From the IMG/VR virus record IMGVR_UViG_3300044824_000082, positions 4,652 to 68,651 of that record: a stretch of 64,000 nucleotides of DNA; one strand, given 5' to 3'. Of the stretch, positions 39,861-56,507 are shown piece after piece. The translations under genes were made by a program, and so were the position numbers. Under the pieces are notes generated by a model that did not search any database, was not told the DNA's origin, and saw nothing but the letters and a program-made list of their open reading frames with translations. Numbering within the stretch: the first letter of the stretch is position 1; each line of letters begins with the position of its first letter. This DNA comes from a virus.

Positions 39861-40874
39861 ATGCAAACAGACGAGTTGAGAAAGATAGTAGAGGTGCTGC
39901 GCGGTATGGAAGGAGACGGCACTACGTTAGTGTCGTACCTTGTAATGCCGAAGCGTTCCATAGCCGACGCCCGTGCCCGATTGGCGCGGGAAGTCGTAGA
40001 AGCCGAGAACATCAAGCTTCACAGCACACGACACGCTGTCGTAGCCTCGCTAACCAAGGCCCTGACAGCGGCCCGAGGCATGTCAGAAACCCCCGAGAAC
40101 GGTGTCGCGCTTTACGCCTCACCCACGGATACATGGCTCATCGAGCCACCCGAACCGATTCAGGCGAACGTGTATCGGTGCGGGAGCGAGTTCGTCTTGG
40201 AGCCGTTGGAGGCGATGCTGGCCTCGAAGGAGGTGTTCGCGTTGATAGTGATAGACAGGCAGGAGGCCACGTTGGGTTGGTTGCGGGGCAGTGCCATCGA
40301 AGAGGTGGCCTATTTCGAGTCCCGCGTGATGGGCAAGCACGATGCGGGCGGGCAATCGCAGCACCGCTTCGAGCGGCAAATAGAGCATCAGGCACACGAG
40401 TTCTTTGTGAAGGTGGCGGAGGCGGCAACGCAGGCTTTCGTGGACAAGAAGCTCACAGCCGTGGCAGTGGGAGGCCCGGGAGCCACGAAGGAGTTCTTTG
40501 TGAAGGAAGGGTATCTGGACTACAGACTGCAAGAAAAGGTGCTCCCTGCGTTTAATGTGGGGTACACGAACGAGGCGGGTTTGCGGGAACTGGCGCTAAA
40601 AGTAGAGGCACATCTGCCTGCGTTGGTGAGCGCCAAAGAGCGGGTGCTCCTGCAAGGGTTCTTTGCGGCGATTCGGGACGGCCGTGCAGCGTACGGCAAG
40701 GAACAGATTGCCCGGGCGATTGCGGAAGGGCGGGTAGAGAGTTTGATTCTGTCGCACGGGGTTCCGGTGCCAGCGGGATACAGTGGAGAGGTTCAGCGAG
40801 TCGGAGAGGCCGGGGACGAGGCGGCGGCGTTCAAGAAAGGCTTCGGTGGAATCGGCGCTTTGTTACGGTACTAA
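39861..40874 (+). CDS. prf1: archaeal-type class-1 peptide chain release factor (aRF1/eRF1)
   Basis: GTT (GTS loop), NIKL, PENG, YRCGSEF (YxCxxxF), KHDAGGQSQHRFER (GGQ), GGPG, FGGIGALLRY. Confidence 0.95.
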   Translation: MQTDELRKIVEVLRGMEGDGTTLVSYLVMPKRSIADARARLAREVVEAENIKLHSTRHAVVASLTKALTAARGMSETPENGVALYASPTDTWLIEPPEPIQANVYRCGSEFVLEPLEAMLASKEVFALIVIDRQEATLGWLRGSAIEEVAYFESRVMGKHDAGGQSQHRFERQIEHQAHEFFVKVAEAATQAFVDKKLTAVAVGGPGATKEFFVKEGYLDYRLQEKVLPAFNVGYTNEAGLRELALKVEAHLPALVSAKERVLLQGFFAAIRDGRAAYGKEQIARAIAEGRVESLILSHGVPVPAGYSGEVQRVGEAGDEAAAFKKGFGGIGALLRY

Positions 40875-42133: not shown

Positions 42134-42216
42134 GGCCCGGTGGGTCAGTCAGGAACGCCGCCGCGCTCAAGACGCGGTGTAGTAGTACAGCGCCGGTTCA
42201 AATCCGGCCCGGGCCA
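42134..42216 (+). tRNA. tRNA-Leu(CAA)
   Basis: cloverleaf; CCGCG-CT CAA GA-CGCGG; long variable arm; GTTCAAATC. Confidence 0.9.
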
Positions 42217-42330
42217 CTGTCGTATGGTATTGAACAGTGGGGTGCCCGAGCCAGTGTGCCAGCAGAGTGCATATCGTGAGTGGTATGACAGGGATAATGC
42301 AAGGATGGAGCGGAGGTATGGGCGATATAC

Positions 42331-42406
42331 GGGCCTGTAGTGGCAAATTTGGAAGAACGCCTGTTTCGCAAACAGGGGGTTCCGGGTTCGAATCCCGGCG
42401 GGTCCA
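42331..42406 (+). tRNA. tRNA-Ala(CGC)
   Basis: CCTGT-TT CGC AA-ACAGG; G3.U70. Confidence 0.93.
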
Positions 42407-42550
42407 TTCATTGGTGAAGGAAATGGGCGAAATCGTGCGGAATTGGAATCCAGAAAACAAGTCGTACGATGAGATGGCTCCGTGGGAGAAGGTGGAGAAC
42501 AACGTTTGGGCGGCTCGGTATGAACGGTTGTGTTTGAGGTTGATAGATGC

Positions 42551-42623
42551 GGGCTCGTAGTGGCAATGGAAGAACACTTCGTTGGCATCGAGGAGGTTGC
42601 GAGTTCGATTCTCGCCGGGTCCA
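42551..42623 (+). tRNA. tRNA-Ala(GGC)
   Basis: CTTCG-TT GGC AT-CGAGG; G3.U70. Confidence 0.92.
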
Positions 42624-42624
42624 T

Positions 42625-42697
42625 GACAGGGAAGCGCTCCGGGATGTGTTCGGGGTTCATACCCCCGAGGTTGGAGGTTCGACTCCTCCCTCTGTCA
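42625..42697 (+). tRNA. tRNA-Met(CAT), initiator-like anticodon stem
   Basis: CGGGG-TT CAT AC-CCCCG with consecutive G-C pairs; A8/U14. Confidence 0.85.
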
Positions 42698-42775
42698 TTT
42701 CATGGTTCACCCGCGATGAAGACGCCCCGATGTACACGGGTGCGGTGCGTGACTTTGTGGAACGGGTGGGCACAT

Positions 42776-42849
42776 GCTCCATTGGGGTAAATTGGGAAGC
42801 CTCGCAGGTTCTCGCCCTGTGGATGTGGGTTCGAATCCCGCATGGAGCA
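42776..42849 (+). tRNA. tRNA-Glu(CTC)
   Basis: GCAGG-TT CTC GC-CCTGT; acceptor GCTCCAT/ATGGAGC. Confidence 0.92.
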
Positions 42850-42853
42850 CCTT

Positions 42854-42926
42854 GCCCGCGCAGTCCGTACGGAACGGATTCTGCCCTGTCACGGCGGAGG
42901 AGTGGGTTCAATTCCCACCGTGGGCG
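42854..42926 (+). tRNA. tRNA-Asp(GTC)
   Basis: CTGCC-CT GTC AC-GGCGG; C8/G14; G73. Confidence 0.9.
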
Positions 42927-42931
42927 TCCGT

Positions 42932-43006
42932 GGGTTCGTGGCGCAAATAGGATAGCGCAAGGGCCTCTTAAGCCCGAGGTTGTGGGTTCAAGTCCCACCG
43001 AGCCCG
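42932..43006 (+). tRNA. tRNA-Lys(CTT)
   Basis: AGGGC-CT CTT AA-GCCCG. Confidence 0.92.
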
Positions 43007-43008
43007 TT

Positions 43009-43083
43009 GGGCTTGTGACTCAGCTTGGACACAGTGCCGCCCCGCGAAGGCGGAAGTCGAGGGTTCAAATCCCTCCAAGCCCG
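43009..43083 (+). tRNA. tRNA-Arg(GCG), C33
   Basis: CCGCC-CC GCG AA-GGCGG. Confidence 0.88.
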
Positions 43084-43084
43084 T

Positions 43085-43158
43085 GCGCTCGTAGCTTAAA
43101 CGGAGAGAGTGCCCGCCTCCTAAGCGGGGCGATACGAGTTCGATTCTCGTCGAGCGCG
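43085..43158 (+). tRNA. tRNA-Arg(CCT)
   Basis: CCCGC-CT CCT AA-GCGGG. Confidence 0.92.
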
Positions 43159-43159
43159 T

Positions 43160-43236
43160 GCACCTGTCGCCTAACTCGGATATGGCGCCACGCTTCGAAC
43201 GTGGAACGATTGCGGGTTCGAATCCCGTCAGGTGCG
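43160..43236 (+). tRNA. tRNA-Arg(TCG)
   Basis: CCACG-CT TCG AA-CGTGG. Confidence 0.92.
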
Positions 43237-43241
43237 TGTAT

Positions 43242-43323
43242 GGCGGAGTGGCTCAGTGTTGACGGCGCGGGCCTTAGAAGTCCGTACGAGGAAACAACGC
43301 AGGTTCAAATCCTGCCTCCGCTA
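43242..43323 (+). tRNA. tRNA-Leu(TAG)
   Basis: CGGGC-CT TAG AA-GTCCG; extended variable region. Confidence 0.85.
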
Positions 43324-43324
43324 C

Positions 43325-43396
43325 AGCCCGATAGTGTAGTGGCGCGCATGGGAACCCTACAAGTTCTCGGTGGGAGTTCAATTCTCTCTCGGGCTA
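43325..43396 (+). tRNA. tRNA-Val(TAC), C33
   Basis: GGAAC-CC TAC AA-GTTCT; acceptor AGCCCGA/TCGGGCT. Confidence 0.82.
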
Positions 43397-43398
43397 TT

Positions 43399-43471
43399 CC
43401 TCACGTAGTTCAATCGGTAGAACACCGGCCCGTAGAGCCGGGTGTTGCTGGTTCAAATCCGGCCGTGGGGA
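43399..43471 (+). tRNA. tRNA-Tyr(GTA), C33
   Basis: CCGGC-CC GTA GA-GCCGG; C1-G72 and short variable loop (archaeal/eukaryal Tyr identity). Confidence 0.9.
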
Positions 43472-43472
43472 C

Positions 43473-43543
43473 GCGTCCATCAGTCAGTGGTAGGCTCCCG
43501 CATCGCCAGTGCGGTGACTCGGGTTCGATTCCCGGTGGGCGCA
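43473..43543 (+). tRNA. tRNA-Gly(GCC), C33
   Basis: CCGCA-TC GCC AG-TGCGG; GCG acceptor start; A73. Confidence 0.9.
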
Positions 43544-43544
43544 T

Positions 43545-43712
43545 ATGAACGAGGAAGAGAGAACGAAATTAGAAGAGGAGTTCCCGATTGTAGACTGTAA
43601 AGGGTGCGGGCATTGTACATGTGCCCATGAACACAGTACAGGAAAATGTCATCTGGTTTGGTGGGACATGAAAGACATGTTAAGGTGTGACTGTCAGGAA
43701 TTCGTTCTATGA
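43545..43712 (+). CDS. small Zn-finger protein inside the tRNA array (not in ORF track)
   Basis: MNEEERTKLEEEFPIVDCKGCGHCTCAHEH..KC..CDCQEFVL; same module as 1584. Confidence 0.55.
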   Translation: MNEEERTKLEEEFPIVDCKGCGHCTCAHEHSTGKCHLVWWDMKDMLRCDCQEFVL

Positions 43713-43715
43713 AGC

Positions 43716-43787
43716 GCGTCCAAGGTGTTGACAGTGACATATCGGGCCTCCAACCCGAAGTACGGGGCGCACGTCCCCGTGGGCGCA
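43716..43787 (+). tRNA. tRNA-Gly(TCC), C33, non-canonical T-loop
   Basis: TCGGG-CC TCC AA-CCCGA; T-arm CGGGG-CGCACGT-CCCCG. Confidence 0.8.
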
Positions 43788-43790
43788 TAT

Positions 43791-43865
43791 GCCACCGTAG
43801 CGAAGTCCAGACATCGCGCCCGCCTCGTAAGCGGGAGTTCGCCGGAGCGAAGCCGGCCGGTGGCT
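43791..43865 (+). tRNA. tRNA-Thr(CGT), non-canonical T-loop
   Basis: CCCGC-CT CGT AA-GCGGG; T-loop AGCGAAG; U73. Confidence 0.85.
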
Positions 43866-43869
43866 TTAT

Positions 43870-43955
43870 GGACGGGTGGCCCAATCAGGAAAGGCGTCCG
43901 CCTCGAAAGCGGATTCTCAGCGATGAGAGTGGGGGTTCAAATCCCCTCCCGTCCG
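43870..43955 (+). tRNA. tRNA-Ser(CGA)
   Basis: TCCGC-CT CGA AA-GCGGA; long variable arm; G73. Confidence 0.92.
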
Positions 43956-43958
43956 TTC

Positions 43959-44030
43959 GCCGGCTTAGCCTAACAGGAGGGCGCCACCCTGAAGAGGTGG
44001 AGATTGGCGGTGCAAGTCCGCCAGCCGGCA
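43959..44030 (+). tRNA. tRNA-Phe(GAA)
   Basis: CCACC-CT GAA GA-GGTGG; T-loop TGCAAGT. Confidence 0.88.
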
Positions 44031-44032
44031 TT

Positions 44033-44105
44033 GGGCGTGGAGCTAATCAGCAGAAGCGCGTGTCTGATACACACGAAGTAGGAGGGGCGGCACCTCCCGC
44101 GCCCA
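44033..44105 (+). tRNA. tRNA-Ile(GAT), non-canonical T-loop
   Basis: CGTGT-CT GAT AC-ACACG; T-loop GGCGGCA; G8. Confidence 0.82.
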
Positions 44106-44108
44106 TGT

Positions 44109-44180
44109 GCCGAGGTAGCTCAGTAGCAGAGCACTCGACTGTTAATCGAGTACGCGAAGGTGCAAGTCCTTCTCTCGGCG
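44109..44180 (+). tRNA. tRNA-Asn(GTT)
   Basis: CTCGA-CT GTT AA-TCGAG; T-loop TGCAAGT; G73. Confidence 0.9.
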
Positions 44181-44181
44181 T

Positions 44182-44267
44182 GGAGGGATGGCCCAGTTGG
44201 CTACGGCGCGGGTTTGCTAAGCCCGTTTCGCGGAAGCGATTCGCCGGTTCGAATCCGGCTCCCTCCG
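44182..44267 (+). tRNA. tRNA-Ser(GCT)
   Basis: CGGGT-TT GCT AA-GCCCG; long variable arm. Confidence 0.92.
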
Positions 44268-44268
44268 T

Positions 44269-44339
44269 GTCGTCCGGGCAGGACAGCCATGCGGGGGCCC
44301 GCAGAGCCTCAGAACCCGGTGCAACTCCGGGGGACGACT
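44269..44339 (+). tRNA. tRNA-Cys(GCA), C33
   Basis: GGGGC-CC GCA GA-GCCTC; U73; T-loop TGCAACT; G8. Confidence 0.82.
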
Positions 44340-44530
44340 TGTGCCCAAAGTGCGGACACGTTCATTCGTTCTTGTCAGGGAAGTGTAACACTGTCTTGGA
44401 TAGATGGTTTGAGTGTGGGTGTCAAGGATGACGACGGACACGATAGTGACGGTAGTGGTGATTGGGATTCTTGCGGCGTGGATTACGTTCGTGATTCGTT
44501 ACTGGTCTAAGTTCATGGAGTGGTTGGAAT

Positions 44531-44905
44531 ATGAAGCTCCCGATTAAGGAACACAAAAGCAAGCACCCTGCGAGTGATGTCAAGACGGCGTCACTGATGG
44601 CCTTCGTGGTGCGGCGGGGGAAGGTAGTGACGGTGGGTTACAATCGAAGGGTGTTTCCGAACGGAGAGGCGTTCTCCCAGCACGCGGAGGAAGCGGCGCT
44701 CAAGAAGGCGGGAAGTCGGGCGAAGGGAGCCACGCTGTACGTGCTTCGGTTCAAGAAGGACGGTAGCCGTGGGATGGCGCGTCCCTGTGGACGGTGCCAC
44801 GACACGTTGAATCGGGCGGGAATCGTGCGGGTGTTCTTTTCGCTGGACAACGTGGACAGGTGGGGAAAGTTGATATGGCAGAACGCACAATGGATAGAGG
44901 TATAG
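44531..44905 (+). CDS. Zn-dependent cytidine/dCMP/tRNA deaminase-superfamily protein inside the tRNA array
   Basis: GYN, HAEEAAL (HxE), ATLYV, ARPCGRC (PCxxC); stop codon overlaps tRNA-Gln. Confidence 0.9.
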   Translation: MKLPIKEHKSKHPASDVKTASLMAFVVRRGKVVTVGYNRRVFPNGEAFSQHAEEAALKKAGSRAKGATLYVLRFKKDGSRGMARPCGRCHDTLNRAGIVRVFFSLDNVDRWGKLIWQNAQWIEV

Positions 44906-44977
44906 CGCCGTGGAGTAGCTGGACAAGCCCACCCGGCTCTGACCCGGGAGACAGAGGTTCGAATCCTCTCGGCGCTA
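44904..44977 (+). tRNA. tRNA-Gln(CTG)
   Basis: CCCGG-CT CTG AC-CCGGG; A1-U72 (archaeal Gln identity). Confidence 0.92.
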
Positions 44978-44984
44978 TCCTTAC

Positions 44985-45059
44985 GGGCGTGTCGTCTAAT
45001 CTGGTTCAGGATAGCTGGCCCCAGACCAGCAGATGTCGGTTCAAATCCGGCCTCGCCCA
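44985..45059 (+). tRNA. tRNA-Trp(CCA), C33
   Basis: GCTGG-CC CCA GA-CCAGC; one acceptor mismatch. Confidence 0.82.
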
Positions 45060-45061
45060 TC

Positions 45062-45136
45062 GGGCGTGTCGCCTATTGGGATGGCACCTGTCTTATAAGC
45101 TGGACAAAGGAGCGAGTTCGATTCTCGTCACGCCCA
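45062..45136 (+). tRNA. tRNA-Ile(TAT)
   Basis: CCTGT-CT TAT AA-GCTGG (one U.U mismatch); acceptor GGGCGTG as in Ile(GAT); 8-nt variable region. Confidence 0.75.
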
Positions 45137-45140
45137 TTGT

Positions 45141-45213
45141 GGGGCTGTGGTGTAACTTGGAAGCATCCGGCGCTCGGAACGCCGAGGTACAGGTTCAAAT
45201 CCTGACAGTCCCA
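45141..45213 (+). tRNA. tRNA-Pro(CGG)
   Basis: CGGCG-CT CGG AA-CGCCG; GGGGC acceptor start. Confidence 0.9.
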
Positions 45214-45547
45214 TTATGAGCGAACTGAAGTGGAGGACGTGTCAGAAGTGCGGCGAGGAACACGTCTTTTCCAGTGAATTGAGATGCGTGAGTTGTCGAG
45301 CGGCGCCCTTGCTCAAGCGGCTCAAGGAACTCGGGTGGGAGAACGGTGTGATTTACGTGGACGGGCTTCCGGTTGGGAAGAAGGCTTAAATAGAAGTGGA
45401 GATGTGATGAGGAGAATGAGTGTGTGTCCGGTTTGCGCGAGGCCAAGTCAAGAGAAAGTTCTGAGCGAGCCTGCAATGGTGCAGCTTTCTTGTGGTCATG
45501 TAGTGCACGAAGGAAAGGTTAAGTAGTCGTGCGGTGATTTGAAAAGC

Positions 45548-46363
45548 ATGGTGGGGAAGTTTAGGCTCGGCAAGAAGGTTCCACGACACGACCCTCGGAC
45601 GTTAAGGTTTGCGAAGTACACGGCGGCACTGGCGGCGCCTCCGGCGCAGGAATATTGGTACAAGGCGGTGCCTTCGTTTGGGATGGACGGTAACGACACG
45701 TACGGCGATTGTACCATTGCGGGCGCGGCGCACCTGATGGAGAATTGGAGTTACAATGAGACGCCACCGAGCCCGGTGGTTCTCTCAACCAACGATTGTG
45801 TGAACGATTACTTGGCATTGACGGGCGGGGCCGACAATGGGTTGGACCTCTTGACAGTGTTGCAAGCGTGGCAAGGCAACGGACTGGCATACGGGACGAG
45901 TGGTAGTCAGTCGTGCTTGCAGAAGTTCTTTCACTGTAAGGTGAGTGGGACGGGGGACGACAAGATTATGGCATACGCGGCGCTCAAGGCGGGCAACGCG
46001 CTTGAGGCACAGCAAGCGGTATGGTTGTTTGGTGGGGCGTACATCGGGTTGGAGTTGCCCGACTTTGCGGTGACGGGAGACATGCTGGCAACCCCGTGGG
46101 TGGTTCCTCCGGGCGGGGCGGTAGGTAACGCGGCGCCGAACCCGAACAATGGGCATTGTGTTTGTATCGTGGGATACGATGCGGCTCAGTTGTATGTAGC
46201 GACTTGGGGAACCGTGAAGACAATGGGATACGATTTCCTGTTGGCGTACAGCGATGAGGGCTACGGGATAATCTCGCCTGACTGGATGGGGACGAGCAAT
46301 ATGGCTCCTTCGGGATTTGATTTGTCGCAGTTGCAAGCGGACCTTGCGGTGGTGACGGGGTAA
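45548..46363 (+). CDS. papain-like (clan CA) cysteine peptidase
   Basis: GNDTYGDCTIAGAAH, NGHCVCIVGYD, VATWG; AAAGGTTAAGTAG promoter. Confidence 0.8.
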   Translation: MVGKFRLGKKVPRHDPRTLRFAKYTAALAAPPAQEYWYKAVPSFGMDGNDTYGDCTIAGAAHLMENWSYNETPPSPVVLSTNDCVNDYLALTGGADNGLDLLTVLQAWQGNGLAYGTSGSQSCLQKFFHCKVSGTGDDKIMAYAALKAGNALEAQQAVWLFGGAYIGLELPDFAVTGDMLATPWVVPPGGAVGNAAPNPNNGHCVCIVGYDAAQLYVATWGTVKTMGYDFLLAYSDEGYGIISPDWMGTSNMAPSGFDLSQLQADLAVVTG

Positions 46364-47308: not shown

Positions 47309-47704
47309 ATGGCAGACTATCCCGGCTGGCTCAGTGGTGAGAAAGCCAAACTGGAAGCGGAGGTTCGGCGCCGGCAGTTGGGGCGGGTAGCCGAGCACTT
47401 GCGGCGCGAGATTCAGAGAATGGACCTTGACGACACGGGACGGTTGATGCGTTCGATTCGAGTGGACGAGAGAGCGGGTACGGTGACGATGGACGCTCCG
47501 TATTCAAAGTTCGTGAACGATGGAAGACGGCCGGGAAGGGCGCCCCCTTACGAGCAAATCCACAGGTGGGTAGGGCACAAGTTGGGCATTACGCAGCCGA
47601 AAAGGTCACGGAACGTGACGTGGGCCATCATGATGAAGATTAAGAAGAAGGGAATCCCCGGGACGTGGATTCTTGAGAGGGCGTGGAAGCGGGCACTCCG
47701 ATGA
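47309..47704 (+). CDS. HK97 gp10-like neck/tail completion protein
   Basis: DTGRLMRSI..APYSKFVNDGRRPG..PP..WV..K..KKGIPG. Confidence 0.75.
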   Translation: MADYPGWLSGEKAKLEAEVRRRQLGRVAEHLRREIQRMDLDDTGRLMRSIRVDERAGTVTMDAPYSKFVNDGRRPGRAPPYEQIHRWVGHKLGITQPKRSRNVTWAIMMKIKKKGIPGTWILERAWKRALR

Positions 47705-47747: not shown

Positions 47748-48668
47748 ATGACAGTCACGGCAATCTATTCGAGTGCGGGTTTCACTTGGGACTTGGCTAC
47801 GGAGACGAGCTTTGCGTCGGGTACGGTAGGGGCGTGGCCGGGAGATTTGGGAGTGCTGGGACTGGGTGCAAACTTTACCAGCTACGAACTGGACAACGCT
47901 TGGCTGGAAGCTTATTCGCTCGGGTTGCGCCAGCCGCAGGCGTATTACACGCAGGGACTTTCGGCACAGACGAACCTCGAATTCTTGCTTTGCAACGATG
48001 GGTGGAACTTTTGGAACCTCGTCCTGCCGAATCTGGGTAGTACAACCGCTGCGACTTACGCGGTGAGCACGGTGCTGGGGAGCACAGTTAACCCCGTGAC
48101 AGCGCAGATTAGTCTCGGGACGCCGCAGGGGCAAAAGTTTGTTTTGGGCGGCATCATCTTTACGCAAGCCAAAGTCACGGTTCCGAACGCAGATGCGATT
48201 AAGGTAACGTTGTCGGGGCTGGGCACCACGTTTTCCAGCACGACGGGTTCGGTTGCCCCGGGGACGATTCCGACTCAGTTGTTGACTTGGAAAGACGTGA
48301 CAATCCAAGCGGGCACAGGCGTTGGTTCGATTGCGGCATCGTTCGTTCAGAACTTGGACTTTACAGTTACCACGGGCGCGAAGCAGTACTATGTGATTGG
48401 CTCGCCGTACTACCAGGCGTGGTTGCCGTTGGAACAGTACGTCGAAGTTAACGTTACGGCGTTCCATCAGGACGCGAATATGGAGTACTTGTTCGATTAC
48501 TTGGCGGCCACGCAGAACGTAGGCGGGACGGTTGTGGTGAATATCGGGACGCACACTGCAACGTTTGCTGGCTGTTATGTGAAGAAGGGAGTCATGTCCG
48601 GGCTTAACGGCGCAAAGGAAGTCATGGACGCGTTGACCTTCCGGGCGCTCAATCTAACCATCGTTTAA
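47748..48668 (+). CDS. major tail tube protein (putative)
   Basis: ETSFAS, YSLGLRQP, YYVIGS motifs; size; precedes chaperone and tape measure genes. Confidence 0.7.
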   Translation: MTVTAIYSSAGFTWDLATETSFASGTVGAWPGDLGVLGLGANFTSYELDNAWLEAYSLGLRQPQAYYTQGLSAQTNLEFLLCNDGWNFWNLVLPNLGSTTAATYAVSTVLGSTVNPVTAQISLGTPQGQKFVLGGIIFTQAKVTVPNADAIKVTLSGLGTTFSSTTGSVAPGTIPTQLLTWKDVTIQAGTGVGSIAASFVQNLDFTVTTGAKQYYVIGSPYYQAWLPLEQYVEVNVTAFHQDANMEYLFDYLAATQNVGGTVVVNIGTHTATFAGCYVKKGVMSGLNGAKEVMDALTFRALNLTIV

Positions 48669-51764: not shown

Positions 51765-52106
51765 ATGACGGCGAAACAAGTGAGCTTCGCGGACATCGCG
51801 GGGCCAAAAGAAGAGGGCGGCGAAGGCGGCAGCATCAAGGAACGAACGATAACGGTGGACGAGGTTTTGAACCAGCCGCTCACCGTTACGAAGGTAGAGG
51901 TGGTGGCGGGGTATCAGAACGAAGACCTGTTGCTCATCTACACAAAAGAGAACCCGAAGCCGATTCGGAGTGGGAGCAAGGTGTTGCTCAAGCAGGCAGG
52001 GGACAAGATTAAGAAGCACACCGATGCGGGCGTAGAAGTCAAGACAGGTATCAAGCGCGAGCGGTCTCAGAAGGACAAGAGTAAGTCGTACTACACGTTC
52101 GTCTAA
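51765..52106 (+). CDS. hypothetical protein, possibly an OB-fold ssDNA-binding protein
   Basis: first gene of the replication block; RSGSKVLLKQ..KSYYTF. Confidence 0.5.
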   Translation: MTAKQVSFADIAGPKEEGGEGGSIKERTITVDEVLNQPLTVTKVEVVAGYQNEDLLLIYTKENPKPIRSGSKVLLKQAGDKIKKHTDAGVEVKTGIKRERSQKDKSKSYYTFV

Positions 52107-52115
52107 GGTGGACGT

Positions 52116-52271
52116 GTGCGTTCGTACCTTGTAGAAGGAAAAACGGGCACTCACGTCGTCTTGGATGATGGGGAGACGATGGTATGTTCGTGCGCGGGGT
52201 TTCAGCATCGGCATCATTGCTCGCACATCGATGGTATTCAAGCGAAGCGCGAGACGCGGAAAAAGCGATGA
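52116..52271 (+). CDS. SWIM zinc-finger protein (51 aa; not in ORF track)
   Basis: MRSYLVEGKTGTHVV..MVCSCAGFQHRHHCSHI (CxC..CxH); AGGTGG SD. Confidence 0.7.
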   Translation: MRSYLVEGKTGTHVVLDDGETMVCSCAGFQHRHHCSHIDGIQAKRETRKKR

Positions 52272-52591: not shown

Positions 52592-53454
52592 AGACGGAAT
52601 TGTTGGCGGGAACGTTCGGAGAGTTCCAGCCGCAGAACGTGTATGCGTTGTACGGGGTGCCGAACGTGGGCAAGACACTGATGGTAATGACAGAGGTGGC
52701 TTCGCTGGCGTCGCAGGGTATCCGAACGCTTTGGATAGACACGGAAGGCGGGTTGAACTTTGACGGCGGGGCGGGTATCTGGGGCGCGTGGAAAGAGAAG
52801 TTGGAGAAACGATTCGGGCTCAAGGACTTGAACGAGTTCGTGGAATACAAGCGCGTTACTGGCTACGAAGAGTTGATGAAGTATCTCGGCCAAGTTGTCG
52901 AGATAGAGTTCGGCGAGGGCAAGATGGGGATTCTCCGTAAGGGAAAGACACGGCGCGGAGAGGAGACAGTGTACGATAGTTTCGGGCGCAAGCGAGGTAA
53001 TTGTGTCATCGTTCTGGATAGCTTGTCCAACGTCTTCCGGGTGGAGTTCGGGAGCACGTTACAGAACTTTCCCAGTCGTGGAGATGCCACCGGGCTTTTG
53101 ACTCACGCGATGAACCTTCTCATGGAGAAAGTAAACGCGCCGCTAATCACGACAAACCACGCCAGCCTCAACCCGAGTAACCCGTGGCAATTCGCGCAGA
53201 TGCGGGGTGGGAGTATGGTGGCCTATTGGAGCAAGAACGTGGCTTACTTGGAGAAGCCCAAGAAGCGGGCGTTGGACACGTACCGGAAGGTATGGGCGTT
53301 TAGGTCGCCGTTGTATAAGGAATTGGGGCACAATGAGTGGATGAGGATTGACAACGACAAAGCGTTCGTTAACAGTTCTGAAGAAGAGGTACAAGCGGCT
53401 ATTGAAGCGGCGGCGACTGCGAAGCGAGACAAAGAAGAAGCGGCAGAAGAATGA
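52588..53454 (+). CDS. RadB/RecA-family ATPase
   Basis: Walker A GVPNVGKT, WIDTEGG, Walker B IVLDSL, TNH, RGG. Confidence 0.85.
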   Translation: MKTELLAGTFGEFQPQNVYALYGVPNVGKTLMVMTEVASLASQGIRTLWIDTEGGLNFDGGAGIWGAWKEKLEKRFGLKDLNEFVEYKRVTGYEELMKYLGQVVEIEFGEGKMGILRKGKTRRGEETVYDSFGRKRGNCVIVLDSLSNVFRVEFGSTLQNFPSRGDATGLLTHAMNLLMEKVNAPLITTNHASLNPSNPWQFAQMRGGSMVAYWSKNVAYLEKPKKRALDTYRKVWAFRSPLYKELGHNEWMRIDNDKAFVNSSEEEVQAAIEAAATAKRDKEEAAEE

Positions 53455-54374
53455 TTAGCGAAGCGGAGTTTGGTATCTGGACACGCGGGCGGGTCCATGA
53501 CGTGCGCGAGTTCGGACTGAAGCGCAAGACGGCTCCGGGGTATGTGGGGTTGTCTCAGTTGTGGACTGGCGTGGACGAGTATGCGGCCATCTTTTCCCGC
53601 GAGCAAATCGAGAAGGGAGAGTTCGATACGATTTTCGTGGAAGTGGATGCCCACAAGCCCGGTGAGGACTGGAATACGAAGTTACAGCAAGTGCTGGCTC
53701 GAACGGAGGAACCTTCGCGGCGGTACGAGTCGGGACGTGGAGCGCACTTGTATTGGGACTTGGACGAACCGATAAAGGGAGTCGGACGTTACAAGCAGGT
53801 AGTCGCAGCGCTGGTGAGGAAGTGGGGTATCGGTGAGTTTATTGACATGCACGTAGTGGGAGACGTGCGGCGGGTGGCCCGGCTTCCCATGAGCAAGAAC
53901 AGTAAGGGCGGGGAGATGATTCGGATAAACTCGTTTATCAGCGGGCCGAGGAAGCTTTATCTGGTAATCGGGGAGGCAAAGGACGGCCCAGAACAGCATT
54001 TCGGGCCTGCTCCCGAGGCCAAACGGTTGTACAGCGAAGGCGAGTATCCGCCGTGCGTGCGGGCGGGTATCAAACAGATTCAGCAGACGGGGGAGCTTGA
54101 CCATGCCCAGCGGTTGCACACGTTCAGTTTCCTCGTGATGAACGATGAGACGCAGAAGGCATACGAGATTCTCAAGCGGTATGCGGGGGACTTTGACCCT
54201 GTCATCAGTGGGTATCAGTTGGGGAGGATGGCGGAGAAGGGGCATTTCCCTTATAAGTGTGCCAACGTGCCGAAAGACTTATGCCCATACACGAACCAGA
54301 AGGAGTGTATGTTCTGGCCGTGGGTTAACGTGCATCGGAACAGGCTTTTGGAGGCATCGAAACATGCTCGGTAA
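53451..54374 (+). CDS. archaeo-eukaryotic primase, catalytic domain fused to a PriL/PriX-like Cys-containing domain
   Basis: FVEVDAH, SGRGAHLY, ID..VVGDVRRVARLP; YPPCV..H..R..YKC..C..C. Confidence 0.85.
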   Translation: MISEAEFGIWTRGRVHDVREFGLKRKTAPGYVGLSQLWTGVDEYAAIFSREQIEKGEFDTIFVEVDAHKPGEDWNTKLQQVLARTEEPSRRYESGRGAHLYWDLDEPIKGVGRYKQVVAALVRKWGIGEFIDMHVVGDVRRVARLPMSKNSKGGEMIRINSFISGPRKLYLVIGEAKDGPEQHFGPAPEAKRLYSEGEYPPCVRAGIKQIQQTGELDHAQRLHTFSFLVMNDETQKAYEILKRYAGDFDPVISGYQLGRMAEKGHFPYKCANVPKDLCPYTNQKECMFWPWVNVHRNRLLEASKHAR

Positions 54375-54448
54375 ATGGGCCAGAAACGGCCGTAGAACCC
54401 TCCCGGGCTTACTAACCGCATCTGGCTCCAACGCCCGAATGGGATAGA

Positions 54449-54571
54449 TTGGGTGGGAAACACTTGTATCGTAAGTTGAAAAAGGAAGGGTATCCGAAAC
54501 TCCCATTGTTGACAGAATGTATGAACTGTAACGTGAAGCGAGATAATTGGGGACGCGGCTTTGACGTTTAA
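54449..54571 (+). pseudogene. C-terminal remnant of an HNH endonuclease
   Basis: LGGKHLYRKLKKEGYPKLPLLTECMNCNVKR resembles GQHFYYWLKQNGYPEGYQTLCMNHQFVKR of 1950; N-part missing. Confidence 0.6.
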
Positions 54572-56507
54572 GTGGGTAACAGCCGGTTATGCCGGCGGTG
54601 GTGAATTGTGGGGGATGAGTCCCGACGGCACCGTGGAGACGGCGCAGATTGGGGACGACGTGGAGTGGCCGTATTTCTACTCCGACATCGAGATGCACGG
54701 TAGTGGGGTAGTCGAGACGGAGTTGGAGTCGATTCGGGTGTTGCGGCTCAATGAGATAGCCGACAAGCGGATGTGGAAGATTTCAATGGATTCGCCTCAG
54801 TTGACTAAGGGACTGCGGGGTAAGGCCAAGTTCACGGCGGAAGACGACATCGTGTATTTGGACAGGAGACTGGGTGCGGACGGTGAGGTGGAATGGGTGC
54901 CGCCCAAGCGAGTCTCGTATATGGACCTTGAAAGTGACAGGAAGACGGGAAAGCCCGTGTTGTTCGGTTCGTTGGTGGGAGATAAATACGAACCGTTCAA
55001 GACGGCACAGGATTACTTTCAAGCAATGGAGGACGACAAGGTAGCCCTTTCGACAGCGTGGAACGGGGACAAGTACGATTTCCGTTTGCTCGACAGGGAA
55101 GGCGGGAGCGAGCATTGGAATCGAATGGCGCATTCCGATTGTATGGAACTTTATGCGAAGTTCGGTGACAAGCACGCGCGGCGCGGGTTGGACATAGTAG
55201 CCCGGCGGGAGAAGGTTGGGAAGAAACTGGACCCAGACGTGGACGGACTCGAAGCGTATAACGAGAACGACTGCCGCATCATGCAGAAGATTGTCGAGAA
55301 GGGAGACTTGATTGGGACGGAATACGCGCTGGGGCACCTGACGGGTATCATGCCCACACCGATGAACCTACGGGCCATTGCCCTGTACGAGAACTACTTG
55401 ATGCGGAATCGGGATAAGTACAACTTGTGGTTGGAGGGTGGCAAGGGATTCCGTGCGAAGGAAGAGAGGATTCAAGGCGCGATGATTTTGTACGGTAATC
55501 CCGGGATTTACGATGGTGCAGACGTGCTGGACTACACGAGCTTGTATCCCAGTGTCGTCATGTATAACGAGTATCACGGCAAGGGAGAGACTGTCTGGGG
55601 AGTCACACAGCAGTTGGTTCGGGAATGGGTGCGGCTCAAGGAAGAGAGTGGTAAGGCCAAGAAGAAAACACAGCGCGAGGCGTACAAGGTGCTGGCGAAT
55701 GGCAGCGGTTACGGTATCTTCATGTCCAGCGGCTTCCGGTATGGGGTGCGGGACATTGCGGCGTTCATTACGGCAACCGCGCGGGCGAAGCTCTTGGAGT
55801 TGCGCGGCATTACGGAGAAGATGGGATTCGTCCCGTTGATGAGCGACACGGATAGTTGTGTGGTTCAGATACCGAAGGCGAAGGCGGCGGCGTTGCTCAA
55901 GACGGTGAACAAGCGGGTGGCTCCGTACAGTGTGAAGGAGGAGTACTACCTGAAGCGGTTCATCCTGTTCGGGGGCATCGAAGGCAAGGCTGTCAAGAAG
56001 CGCTACGCGGGCCTTACCGAAGACGACATGCTGGTGGTAAAGGGCCTTGAAATGGTACGCAACGATTGGAGCCCGTGGGCCCGGGAGATGCAAGAACGGT
56101 TGCTCATGGTGATGTTGAAGGCGCCATACGACCAAGTAGCACAGGTATTGAAGGCGGCGGTAGAGGTGGAGAAGGAAGCCTTCTTCGGTGGCAAGGTGCC
56201 GGTGGATGATGTGGCCATCACAAAGAGTATCGACCTCGAAAGGGAATACAAAGTGAAGACTCAGCACTTGAAAGCCTACGAGCAGTTGGAAGACAAGGGC
56301 GAGGGTGCTATTGGATTCGTTACGTACTGGGTGGACGCGAAGGGCAAGACAATCGTTCGGAAGGGAGAGACGGACGAGGAGCTTCGAGCCAAGCTCGATT
56401 GGAAGGCCATCTGGCGGAAGCAGGCAGAGCCGATAATCACGCGGTTGAAGTCGTGCTTCCAGATGCCAGTACGGACGTTGGAGTTGTACTTGACGGGGGA
56501 GCCGTGA
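54561..56507 (+). CDS. polB: family B DNA polymerase with 3'-5' exonuclease
   Basis: ExoI DLE, ExoII WNGDKYDF, ExoIII YNENDC; DYTSLYPS, KVLANGSGYG, SDTDS, KKRY, KGLE. Confidence 0.95.
   Translation: MTFKWVTAGYAGGGELWGMSPDGTVETAQIGDDVEWPYFYSDIEMHGSGVVETELESIRVLRLNEIADKRMWKISMDSPQLTKGLRGKAKFTAEDDIVYLDRRLGADGEVEWVPPKRVSYMDLESDRKTGKPVLFGSLVGDKYEPFKTAQDYFQAMEDDKVALSTAWNGDKYDFRLLDREGGSEHWNRMAHSDCMELYAKFGDKHARRGLDIVARREKVGKKLDPDVDGLEAYNENDCRIMQKIVEKGDLIGTEYALGHLTGIMPTPMNLRAIALYENYLMRNRDKYNLWLEGGKGFRAKEERIQGAMILYGNPGIYDGADVLDYTSLYPSVVMYNEYHGKGETVWGVTQQLVREWVRLKEESGKAKKKTQREAYKVLANGSGYGIFMSSGFRYGVRDIAAFITATARAKLLELRGITEKMGFVPLMSDTDSCVVQIPKAKAAALLKTVNKRVAPYSVKEEYYLKRFILFGGIEGKAVKKRYAGLTEDDMLVVKGLEMVRNDWSPWAREMQERLLMVMLKAPYDQVAQVLKAAVEVEKEAFFGGKVPVDDVAITKSIDLEREYKVKTQHLKAYEQLEDKGEGAIGFVTYWVDAKGKTIVRKGETDEELRAKLDWKAIWRKQAEPIITRLKSCFQMPVRTLELYLTGEP

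What the first reader, a model, noticed from the sequence alone, without database searches (positions are those of the whole stretch)
43009..45059. Seven viral tRNAs carry C33 instead of U33, with a deaminase inside the same array: candidate C-to-U tRNA editing or nuclease-evasion system
Seen: Arg(GCG), Val(TAC), Tyr(GTA), Gly(GCC), Gly(TCC), Cys(GCA) and Trp(CCA) all have C immediately 5' of the anticodon. The other 19 tRNAs have T, and stems and identity elements are intact, so random decay is unlikely. A 124-aa HxE/PCxxC deaminase (44531-44905) lies inside the array and its stop codon overlaps tRNA-Gln. Known: U33 forms the anticodon U-turn and is almost invariant in elongator tRNAs; C-to-U tRNA editing by a cytidine deaminase exists in archaea (CDAT8, position 8, Methanopyrus kandleri). 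Inference: either the viral deaminase converts C33 to U33 (and/or edits C32) to activate these tRNAs, or C33 is retained to escape host anticodon nucleases. Caveat: similar small deaminases occur in other large viruses with unknown substrates.
Basis: partly seen in the sequence, partly recalled or inferred. Interest (0 to 1): 0.9.

Follow-up and report, generated by a model that had tools for sequence, protein, structure and literature searches.

The report
Archaeal virus tRNAs with C33
A peat virus that probably infects archaea carries 26 transfer RNA genes, seven of which have a C where nearly all tRNAs have a U, and the small deaminase gene among them shows no sign of being their editor.

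Summary
The array (42134-45214) has 26 intact tRNA genes for 19 amino acids. Seven carry C33: Arg-GCG, Val-TAC, Tyr-GTA, Gly-GCC, Gly-TCC, Cys-GCA and Trp-CCA. That is 7 of 26, against 3 of 105 in three cultured tRNA-rich viruses. A 124-aa HAE/PCxxC deaminase (44531-44905) lies inside the array.

New context: the virus is most likely archaeal. It encodes an aRF1 release factor 1.3 kb upstream, its portal matches only haloarchaeal viruses, and its tRNA identity elements look archaeal.

The editing idea gained no support. The deaminase belongs to a large, virus-rich family of minimal, basic deaminases nearest to dCMP deaminases. It is not CDAT8-like or TadA-like. Its homologues occur in viruses whose tRNAs have U33, and C33 tRNAs occur in a phage with no such deaminase. 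No RNA data exist and close relatives could not be reached, so editing is weakened but not refuted.

Most likely the tRNAs are used with C33 unedited. None of the eight tRNAs that need t6A37 has C33, and C33 is a published t6A anti-determinant in E. coli and yeast.

This scan has already reported C33-rich tRNA arrays several times in bacterial phages, twice beside small deaminases.

The parts
42134..45214 (+). Array of 26 tRNA genes for 19 amino acids (His missing). Spacing is mostly 1-7 nt, none encodes CCA and no anticodon begins with A.
43009..43083 (+). tRNA-Arg(GCG), C33 at 43043, otherwise canonical
   Evidence: (56.1 bits)
43325..43396 (+). tRNA-Val(TAC), C33 at 43357
   Evidence: (50.8 bits)
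43399..43471 (+). tRNA-Tyr(GTA), class I, C1:G72, C33 at 43431
   Evidence: (62.2 bits)
43473..43543 (+). tRNA-Gly(GCC), C33 at 43504
   Evidence: (46.3 bits)
43716..43787 (+). tRNA-Gly(TCC), C33 at 43748. T loop is CGCACGT and the D loop has no GG. Found only at a relaxed threshold.
44269..44339 (+). tRNA-Cys(GCA), C33 at 44300. T loop is TGCAACT, discriminator is U73. Found only at a relaxed threshold.
44985..45059 (+). tRNA-Trp(CCA), C33 at 45020, discriminator A73
   Evidence: (50.7 bits)
44531..44905 (+). 124-aa minimal zinc deaminase of the CDA fold (HAE 51-53, PCGRC 85-89), pI 10.5. Its stop codon overlaps tRNA-Gln.
44413..44547 (+). 44-aa hydrophobic ORF that overlaps the deaminase start. 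It is a prediction only.
   Evidence: no family hit
43545..43712 (+). 55-aa Cys/His-rich mini-ORF inside the array. It has a shorter look-alike at about 44339-44431.
   Evidence: no family hit
39861..40874 (+). Virus-encoded aRF1 (class I release factor of archaea), 1.3 kb upstream of the array. It is part of the same translation-related neighbourhood.

Best explanation
The seven C33 tRNAs are intact, working tRNA genes of an archaeal tailed virus, and they are used with C33 unedited. They belong to a virus-borne translation module: an aRF1 release factor plus 26 tRNAs of archaeal type.

A pyrimidine at position 33 is enough for these tRNAs to function over one infection cycle. C33 is found only in tRNAs that do not need the t6A37 modification (anticodons not ending in U), for which C33 is a known anti-determinant in E. 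coli and yeast, and mostly in tRNAs with C at position 35. I read this as a lineage-specific tolerated variant whose spread is limited by purifying selection where U33 is needed.

The 124-aa deaminase is one of several small accessory ORFs lodged between the tRNA genes. It belongs to a large, virus-enriched family of minimal basic deaminases closest to dCMP deaminases. Its substrate is unknown, and it is not a dedicated C33 editor.

Shown here: the C33 letters, the intactness of the tRNAs, the archaeal signature, the family placement of the deaminase and the dissociation in distant viruses. Inferred: that C33 stays C in the mature RNA, that these tRNAs decode, and the t6A constraint.
For: - C33 is real and reproduced in independent runs.
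- All seven have 6-7 of 7 acceptor pairs. Five of seven are otherwise canonical.
- Rfam scores of the five detected C33 tRNAs (median 50.8 bits) do not differ from 18 T33 tRNAs (median 53.2; Mann-Whitney p=0.94). This comparison leaves out Gly-TCC, Cys-GCA and Ile-GAT, which Rfam did not detect.
- The C33 tRNAs are the array's only Tyr, Cys, Trp and Gly tRNAs. Under my wobble assumptions they would read 3544 of 15131 codons (23%) in 35 long plus-strand ORFs.
- 0 of 8 tRNAs with U36 have C33, against 7 of 18 others (two-sided p=0.062). C33 blocks t6A37 formation by E. coli TsaBCDE and yeast KEOPS (PMC8887486, passages read).
- All seven deviations at position 33 are to the other pyrimidine.
- Deaminase: it passes no curated family cut-off. 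A family profile ranks dCMP deaminases first (4p9c 3.6e-15, 1vq2 4.2e-14), TadA next (about 1e-10 to 1e-7) and CDAT8 (3g8q) last at 0.0036.
- Dissociation: Jay2Jay has a 37% homologue and 1 C33 in 42 tRNAs. The tRNAs beside the 40-41% homologues in L002, L003 and L004 have T33. Bxz1 has 2 C33 in 28 tRNAs and no PF00383 gene in its 156 kb.
- Archaeal host: aRF1 scores 308 bits against a cut-off of 234.7. A PriL-like protein and a family B polymerase are present. Portal hits are 8 of 8 haloarchaeal tailed viruses. Two major capsid protein (MCP) homologues are named by their sources as a Thermoplasmatales archaeon and a Parvarchaeum. Tyr is class I with C1:G72, Gly and Trp have A73, Gln has A1:U72, the Arg anticodon is GCG, and no tRNA has A34. 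The identity rules are recalled, not tested.
Against: - No RNA data: no listed run holding this stretch is RNA, so the letter at position 33 in the mature tRNA is unknown.
- The deaminase lies inside the array and its stop codon overlaps tRNA-Gln.
- The family is strikingly basic: 63 of 64 members have pI above 9, median 9.9. Only 3 of 64 have the Asn after HAE that I recall as the dCMP-deaminase hallmark. A polynucleotide substrate is therefore quite possible.
- Its nearest homologues all lie near tRNA genes: 230 nt away in L002/L003, about 1 kb in L004, and inside the tRNA-rich region of Streptomyces BE-cluster phages.
- Archaeal tailed viruses are reported to use dCTP deaminase (Dcd), not dCMP deaminase, for dTMP synthesis (PMC8651126, passages read).
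- No thymidylate synthase was found in the 68.6 kb held, but the record is only 47% complete.
- The U36 and C35 patterns are post hoc and marginal. An earlier scan note reports C33 in T5 tRNA-Lys and tRNA-Ile, which would break the U36 rule elsewhere. I did not check that note.
- The dissociation tests use viruses only 37-41% identical in the deaminase, and none is a relative of this virus.
Confidence: 0.55

Rival explanations
1. Adaptive evasion. C33 is kept in the mature tRNA because it lets the viral tRNAs escape a host enzyme that reads or cuts the anticodon loop at U33, such as an anticodon nuclease of a defence or toxin system, or a modification enzyme. The virus can then keep translating while host tRNAs are disabled.
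For: - Viral tRNAs with altered anticodon stem-loops resist defence nucleases in experiments (T5 tRNA-Lys against PARIS AriB, PMC11464382, passages read). The general hypothesis is in print (PMC10264068, Results and discussion section read).
- The C33 frequency here is about ten times that of three cultured tRNA-rich viruses.
- GC content alone does not explain it. Bxz1, which I recall as about 65% GC, has only 2 C33 in 28 tRNAs.
- The virus carries its own aRF1 next to the array, which fits a fight over the translation machinery.
- Six tRNAs also have a remodelled T loop with G55.
Against: - No archaeal anticodon nuclease that depends on U33 is known to me.
- The host is unknown, so viral and host loops cannot be compared.
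- The K. lactis gamma-toxin cleaves a U33C substrate as well as the wild type (PMC2275089).
- In the PARIS case the protective change was a base-pair swap in the stem, not position 33.
- The main text of PMC10264068 never mentions position 33. Its supplements could not be opened.
- No RtcB tRNA-repair gene was found in the part of the genome held (the record is 47% complete).
Confidence: 0.25
2. Editing. The 124-aa deaminase is a viral tRNA cytidine deaminase that converts C33 (perhaps also C32, or C8 of tRNA-Asp) to U after transcription. This would restore the U-turn in the seven tRNAs.
For: - The gene lies inside the array and its stop codon overlaps tRNA-Gln.
- All seven deviations at position 33 are to C.
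- The family is basic (63 of 64 with pI above 9) and mostly lacks the dCMP-deaminase Asn.
- The closest homologues lie near tRNA genes.
- tRNA C-to-U editing exists elsewhere: CDAT8 (recalled), TrcP at C32 of V. cholerae tRNA-Tyr (PMC9553926, abstract seen) and T. brucei mitochondrial tRNA-Trp (PMC8677022, abstract seen).
- Earlier notes of this scan report other small deaminases beside phage tRNA arrays (not checked by me).
Against: - There is no RNA-binding domain. The protein is 124 aa of bare deaminase core with a C-terminal beta hairpin.
- CDAT8 is only a marginal match and TadA ranks below dCMP deaminases.
- Homologues occur where tRNAs have U33: Jay2Jay 1 of 42, and L002 to L004.
- C33 tRNAs persist in Bxz1 without any PF00383 gene.
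- At other invariant U positions the array deviates mostly to non-C letters: position 8 is A, C, A, G, G and position 55 is G six times. There is no general encode-C-then-edit pattern.
- The enzyme would have to pick C33 and spare C32, C34 and C35 in loops such as CCCCAGA.
- If C33 were edited before modification, the absence of C33 from the t6A-dependent tRNAs would need another explanation.
Confidence: 0.1
3. Decay. The C33 genes are degenerating pseudo-tRNAs of a redundant array and are not used.
For: Two of the seven (Gly-TCC and Cys-GCA) also have non-canonical D and T loops and fall below the detection thresholds of Rfam and default ARAGORN.
Against: - Five of seven are otherwise canonical, with Rfam scores of 46-62 bits.
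- All have 6-7 of 7 acceptor pairs and identity elements that match their anticodons.
- They are the array's only Tyr, Cys, Trp and Gly tRNAs.
- All seven changes are to C, never to a purine.
- The odd T loops covary with the D loops (5 of 6 G55 tRNAs lack GG, against 1 of 20 others, p=5e-4). That points to compensated structure, not decay.
Confidence: 0.05

Closest known systems
tRNA gene set of Halogranum tailed virus HGTV-1 (NC_021328), reported as the archaeal virus with the most tRNA genes (36; PMC8651126 and PMC13532342, passages read)
   Same: Both are archaeal tailed viruses of about 145 kb (this one by CheckV estimate) with a long prohead protease and a dense tRNA array. Both have Arg-GCG, a short class I Tyr and some TGC-type T loops.
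   Different: HGTV-1 has 0 C33 in the 35 tRNAs ARAGORN found (three have A33) and no PF00383 deaminase. It carries RtcB, RNA ligases and a CCA-adding enzyme, none of which was found here. The portal of this virus matches HCTV-1, HCTV-5 and HVTV-1, not HGTV-1. This virus comes from peat, not brine.
Phage tRNAs with altered anticodon loops, proposed or shown to resist host tRNA nucleases: cluster C1 mycobacteriophages (PMC10264068) and T5 tRNA-Lys against PARIS (PMC11464382)
   Same: These are virus-encoded tRNA arrays whose anticodon stem-loops depart from the cellular consensus. Bxz1 tRNA-Val(CAC) and tRNA-Val(GAC) also have C33.
   Different: Those are bacterial phages. C33 is rare in them (2 of 28 in Bxz1) and is not discussed in the main texts I read. 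Resistance has been shown only for changes at other positions.
CDAT8, the tRNA C8-to-U8 deaminase of Methanopyrus kandleri (PDB 3g8q)
   Same: It is a zinc deaminase of the CDA fold that repairs a genomically encoded C at an invariant U of archaeal tRNAs.
   Different: CDAT8 carries a THUMP RNA-binding domain (molecule name). The viral protein is 124 aa with PF00383 only. The sequence match is marginal (E 0.0036, no stretch passing). Only one tRNA here (Asp) has C8.
TrcP of Vibrio cholerae (C32 to U to pseudouridine editing of tRNA-Tyr; PMC9553926, abstract only)
   Same: It is a prokaryotic cytidine deaminase domain that acts on the anticodon loop of a tRNA, next to position 33.
   Different: TrcP is a large multidomain enzyme that pairs the deaminase with a pseudouridine synthase. 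I made no sequence comparison because no TrcP sequence was at hand.
Small viral dCMP deaminases (cyanophage S-TIM5, PDB 4p9c; T4 Cd, PDB 1vq2)
   Same: They are the best profile matches in the PDB (3.6e-15 and 4.2e-14). PHROG 174, 'dCMP deaminase', matches at 2.2e-9. Size and HAE/PCxxC core are similar.
   Different: ComEB scores 13.3 bits against a cut-off of 219. The Asn after HAE is absent here and in 61 of 64 family members. There is an extra basic loop between strand 3 and the PCxxC motif, and no helix after strand 4. pI is about 10.
C33 in the initiator tRNA-Met of multicellular eukaryotes (PMC8887486)
   Same: It is a natural, functional tRNA with C33, which shows that a ribosome of the archaeo-eukaryotic type can use C33.
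   Different: That is a single initiator tRNA. Here seven elongator tRNAs carry C33 and the Met tRNA has U33.

Membership tests
Canonical tRNA (Rfam RF00005) | Score above the gathering threshold of 29 bits | tested here: met
   Five of the seven C33 tRNAs score 46.3-62.2 bits. Gly-TCC and Cys-GCA were not reported, so the feature is not met for those two.
Canonical tRNA (Rfam RF00005) | Seven-base-pair acceptor stem and cloverleaf | tested here: met
   7/7 pairs in 25 tRNAs and 6/7 in Trp.
Canonical tRNA (Rfam RF00005) | U at position 33 | tested here: not met
   C in 7 of 26.
CDA-fold zinc deaminase superfamily (Pfam PF00383) | H(C)xE and PCxxC zinc and catalytic motifs, and a score above the Pfam cut-off | tested here: met
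   41.9 bits against a cut-off of 25. H51, A52, E53, C86 and C89 are invariant in 64 family members.
dCMP deaminase (ComEB / T4 Cd type) | NCBIfam TIGR02571 curated cut-off | tested here: not met
   13.3 bits against 219.45.
dCMP deaminase (ComEB / T4 Cd type) | HAExN motif, in which the Asn contacts the deoxyribose (motif recalled, not taken from a call) | tested here: not met
   The sequence is HAEEA here. Asn is present in only 3 of 64 family members.
TadA (tRNA adenosine-34 deaminase) | NCBIfam NF008113 curated cut-off | tested here: not met
   13.7 bits against 150.
TadA (tRNA adenosine-34 deaminase) | A substrate tRNA with A34, such as Arg-ACG | tested here: not met
   None of the 26 anticodons begins with A, and the Arg tRNAs are GCG, CCT and TCG.
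CDAT8 (archaeal tRNA C8 deaminase) | Deaminase domain joined to a THUMP RNA-binding domain | tested here: not met
   The protein is 124 aa with PF00383 and MafB19-deam hits only. The model shows a bare core plus a beta hairpin.
CDAT8 (archaeal tRNA C8 deaminase) | Sequence kinship with 3g8q | tested here: inconclusive
   E 0.0036 with the 64-sequence profile and no stretch passing on its own. It was absent from the 7-sequence search.
Tetrameric cytidine deaminase (Cdd) | NCBIfam TIGR01354 curated cut-off | tested here: not met
   17.9 bits against 113.65.
TrcP-type tRNA C-to-U editor | Sequence kinship and multidomain architecture | not tested
   No TrcP sequence was available from a tool. The length of 124 aa does not fit a multidomain enzyme.
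Nuclease-resistant viral tRNA (T5 tRNA-Lys / PARIS type) | Resistance to a host nuclease that cuts the host isoacceptor | not testable with these tools
   Host and nuclease are unknown and no RNA data exist.
aRF1 (archaeal class I release factor), for the neighbouring gene 39861-40874 | NCBIfam TIGR03676 equivalog cut-off and a GGQ motif | tested here: met
   308.2 bits against 234.7. GGQ and YxCxxxF are present, and NIKL stands in place of NIKS (the motif names are recalled).

The most novel reading that the evidence does not exclude
The small, very basic deaminases that recur beside tRNA genes in large viruses are tRNA cytidine deaminases. In this archaeal virus the enzyme would convert C33 to U33 in seven tRNAs after transcription. 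That would be the first viral tRNA editing system and the first editing of the U-turn nucleotide. These tRNAs would then work only once the viral enzyme is made.
Probability: 0.09. Interest if true: 0.9.

Novelty: new variant of a known kind. Interest (0 to 1): 0.45.

Why it matters
U33 makes the U-turn of the anticodon loop and is among the most conserved nucleotides in biology. A virus in which a quarter of an otherwise intact tRNA set has C33 shows that the rule can be relaxed on a large scale. It also provides natural material for asking what U33 is needed for: decoding, t6A37 formation, or recognition by nucleases.

The context adds value. This appears to be an archaeal virus from peat with 26 tRNA genes. 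Among the archaeal viruses described in the papers I read, only HGTV-1 has more (36). It also has its own aRF1 release factor. My searches found no paper describing an aRF1 in an archaeal virus.

If the minority editing reading were true, it would be a new class of RNA editing. If the evasion reading were true, it would extend the fight between viral tRNAs and host tRNases to archaea.

The phenomenon is not unique to this window. This scan has already reported several C33-rich phage arrays.

Tried and rejected
- RNA evidence: the look-up of sequencing runs listed 13 runs holding the stretch and none is on record as RNA, so there is no RNA holder. Read laying on X2, X3, X4 and X8 showed only the same virus (0-1 differences) and unrelated tRNAs of other organisms. 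It gave no diverged relatives and no information on conservation.
- Deaminase in IMG/VR: the single sequence found nothing. The alignment found 5 distant loci of 28-42% identity, with no tRNA within 10 kb in the two I scanned, L023 and L025.
- Deaminase in metagenome contigs: 21 loci. One is this same virus (L001) and three have 40-41% identity (L002 to L004). The rest, at 23-42% over the best segment, showed no tRNA in the 13 that I scanned.
- Deaminase and MCP in GTDB genomes: nothing found.
- MCP in IMG/VR: the single sequence found nothing. The alignment found 31 loci, and only L031 has a tRNA, a single Pro-TGG. Of five records I asked for, four were searched and L034 is not held. One of the four has a tRNA and none has the deaminase. 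The protein downstream of the array led only to the same contig again.
- DNA pattern of the Tyr anticodon arm with Y at position 33: 6 hits, none a tRNA. The L064 hit is a hairpin followed by a T run.
- Fold search: only generic CDA-fold hits with TM about 0.5. It could not place the protein in a subfamily.
- Thymidylate synthases and RtcB in the own record: none found. This is uninformative at 47% completeness.
- Alternative genetic code: rejected. All three stop codons end ORFs (TGA 19, TAA 14, TAG 8 of 41).
- A rule linking C33 to C32: 6 of 7 against 13 of 19, not distinctive.
- Literature: no paper on C33 in phage or archaeal-virus tRNAs was found. Supplementary files, including those of PMC10264068, were not opened.
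- Not used: complex prediction, build_rna_model and the second structure job.

Full report
**What is there**

The window is part of a 68,651-bp IMG/VR virus record that CheckV rates 47% complete. The runs holding more than half of its sampled words are labelled peat metagenomes.

Default ARAGORN and Rfam each find 22 tRNAs between 42134 and 45214, all on the plus strand. Relaxed ARAGORN and inspection of the sequence add Ala-CGC, Gly-TCC, Ile-GAT and Cys-GCA in the gaps. That gives 26 genes for 19 amino acids, with His missing.

Seven have C immediately 5' of the anticodon, at the coordinates listed in the observation check. The other 19 have T. For Ala-CGC this relies on my own register (loop TTCGCAA), supported by its G3:T70 pair and its paralogy with Ala-GGC. 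The alternative register (TCGCAAA) would make it an eighth C33.

All 26 have 7/7 acceptor pairs except Trp, which has 6/7. Five of the seven C33 tRNAs are canonical at the other invariant positions. Their Rfam scores do not differ from those of the T33 tRNAs (the three tRNAs Rfam missed are left out).

Contigs from other runs and studies reproduce the C33 letters with 0-1 differences. At 7/26 against 3/105 in three cultured tRNA-rich viruses (p=4.6e-4), it is far more than chance.

**What kind of virus**

Portal, prohead protease, major head protein, tail tube and tape-measure genes show a tailed virus. Several lines point to an archaeal host.

- The portal matches only haloarchaeal tailed viruses among 50,697 phage records (8 of 8 hits, 23-25% identity, E 2e-26).
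- Two capsid homologues are named by their sources as a Thermoplasmatales archaeon and a Parvarchaeum.
- The window encodes a PriL-like protein and a family B polymerase.
- ORF 39861-40874 is a bona fide aRF1. It scores 308 bits against a cut-off of 234.7 and has a GGQ motif.
- The tRNAs agree. Tyr is class I with C1:G72, Gly and Trp have A73, Gln has A1:U72, an Arg tRNA has anticodon GCG, and no anticodon begins with A. These identity rules are recalled, not tested.

The array therefore belongs to a viral translation module of archaeal type. The closest IMG/VR relative (L031, 67% MCP identity) has a single tRNA-Pro at the same syntenic spot, just upstream of a 76% identical homologue of ORF 45539-46363. 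It has no deaminase. The array plus deaminase is thus a lineage-specific expansion of that site.

**The deaminase**

The 124-aa protein has HAE and PCGRC motifs and passes Pfam PF00383. It passes no curated NCBIfam family: RibD, Cdd, TadA and ComEB all score far below their cut-offs.

Only six close homologues were found among 5.8 billion proteins. A profile search finds 279 representatives at E up to 1e-10, nearly all 95-160 aa long. The ESM Atlas places the protein next to a 1575-member cluster that is 92% viral.

With a 64-member profile the best solved matches are dCMP deaminases, then TadA, and CDAT8 only marginally.

The AlphaFold model (pLDDT 80) is a bare CDA core ending in a beta hairpin, with no helix after strand 4. 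Foldseek could not refine the placement.

Two features do not fit an ordinary dCMP deaminase. First, 63 of 64 members have pI above 9. Second, only 3 of 64 have the Asn after HAE that I recall as the dCMP-deaminase hallmark. The substrate is therefore open.

**Does the deaminase go with C33?**

- Its nearest cultured homologues (37% identity) are in Streptomyces BE-cluster phages (62 of 68 tblastn hits). In Jay2Jay the gene lies in the tRNA-rich region, but only 1 of 42 detected tRNAs has C33.
- The 40-41% homologues in metagenome loci L002, L003 and L004 lie 0.2-1.4 kb from tRNAs, and those tRNAs have T33.
- Conversely, Bxz1 has two C33 tRNAs (Val-CAC and Val-GAC) and no PF00383 gene in its whole genome.
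- HGTV-1 has neither.

So the two features dissociate, but only in distant viruses. The nearness of homologues to tRNA genes is itself a mild argument for a tRNA-related role. Close relatives could not be examined.

**How it most likely works**

I favour unedited, functional C33 tRNAs.

- All seven deviations are to the other pyrimidine, and the rest of each molecule is conserved.
- These tRNAs are the array's only Tyr, Cys, Trp and Gly species. They would read about 23% of the codons in the viral ORFs.
- C33 is absent from all eight tRNAs with U36, which need t6A37, and present in 7 of the 18 others (p=0.062).
- C33 has been shown to block t6A formation by E. coli TsaBCDE and yeast KEOPS (PMC8887486). 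That pattern is expected if C33 is still C when the tRNA is modified.
- C33 also goes with C35 (5/7 against 3/19, p=0.014), but this is a post hoc observation.

Whether the high frequency reflects tolerance or selection for escape from host enzymes cannot be decided. Published cases show viral tRNAs escaping nucleases through other stem-loop changes. One anticodon nuclease ignores U33C altogether.

**Comparison and novelty**

The closest known object is the HGTV-1 tRNA set. The closest concept is the "nuclease-insensitive phage tRNA" hypothesis (PMC10264068), whose main text does not mention position 33. I found no paper on C33-rich viral tRNA sets.

This scan, however, has already reported several such arrays in GC-rich bacterial phages. 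Some lay beside small deaminases, and those follow-ups reached the same negative verdict on editing. Those are unchecked notes, and I tested only parts of them.

New here are the archaeal setting and the t6A-linked distribution.

**Verdict**

The editing reading is not supported but not refuted, at about 0.1. The finding is of moderate interest.

Noticed in passing
window 39861-40874 (+): A virus-encoded archaeal release factor aRF1 (TIGR03676, 308 bits against a cut-off of 234.7). It has GGQ and YxCxxxF motifs, NIKL in place of NIKS, and a shortened C-terminus (337 aa against a 403-position model). My searches found no paper describing an aRF1 in an archaeal virus. All three stop codons are used by the viral ORFs.
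   Followed up: partly
window 43716-44339 (+): Six tRNAs (Gly-TCC, Thr-CGT, Phe-GAA, Ile-GAT, Asn-GTT, Cys-GCA) have G instead of U at T-loop position 55. Five of the six also lack the D-loop GG, against 1 of 20 other tRNAs (p=5e-4). This looks like a compensated change in the contact between the D and T loops. HGTV-1 tRNA-Asn, Trp and His also have TGC-type T loops. The only blastn hits of the array in the phage collection were tRNA-Asn genes of haloarchaeal viruses plus three single hits in bacterial phages.
   Followed up: partly
window 43545-43712, about 44339-44431, and 45216-45389 (+): Mini-ORFs rich in Cys and His sit between the tRNA genes. Two share a CxxCGH...GKC...CxC pattern and look like paralogues. 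None has a family hit.
   Followed up: no
window 44903-44905: The TAG stop of the deaminase overlaps nucleotides 1-2 of tRNA-Gln. RNase P processing of a joint transcript would therefore cut off the stop codon of the mRNA.
   Followed up: no
window 42134-45214 compared with L031:4535-4609: The closest IMG/VR relative (67% MCP identity) has one tRNA-Pro(TGG) exactly where this virus has 26 tRNAs ending in tRNA-Pro(CGG), just upstream of a 76% identical gene. The site seems to be a growth point for tRNA genes.
   Followed up: partly
window 53451-56507 (+): A protein like the large primase subunit of archaea and eukaryotes (PF04104, right at its cut-off) is followed by a family B DNA polymerase.
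   Followed up: no
L002:5630-6252 and L003 (31.5% GC metagenome contigs): A 107-aa member of the same deaminase family lies in a low-GC element that looks archaeal, with a KaiC/RecA-like ATPase, a DNA methyltransferase and a dUTPase nearby. A GC-rich tRNA with a poorly paired anticodon stem follows 230 nt downstream and could be an integration site. The neighbour functions are my own reading of the translations; I ran no family search on them.
   Followed up: partly
HGTV-1 (NC_021328) 47537-47609, 48250-48320, 52081-52168: ARAGORN reads A33 in three HGTV-1 tRNAs (Cys-GCA, one Ile-GAT, Ala-AGC), so non-U33 tRNAs also occur in this archaeal virus. These may be the pseudogenes mentioned in PMC13532342.
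   Followed up: no
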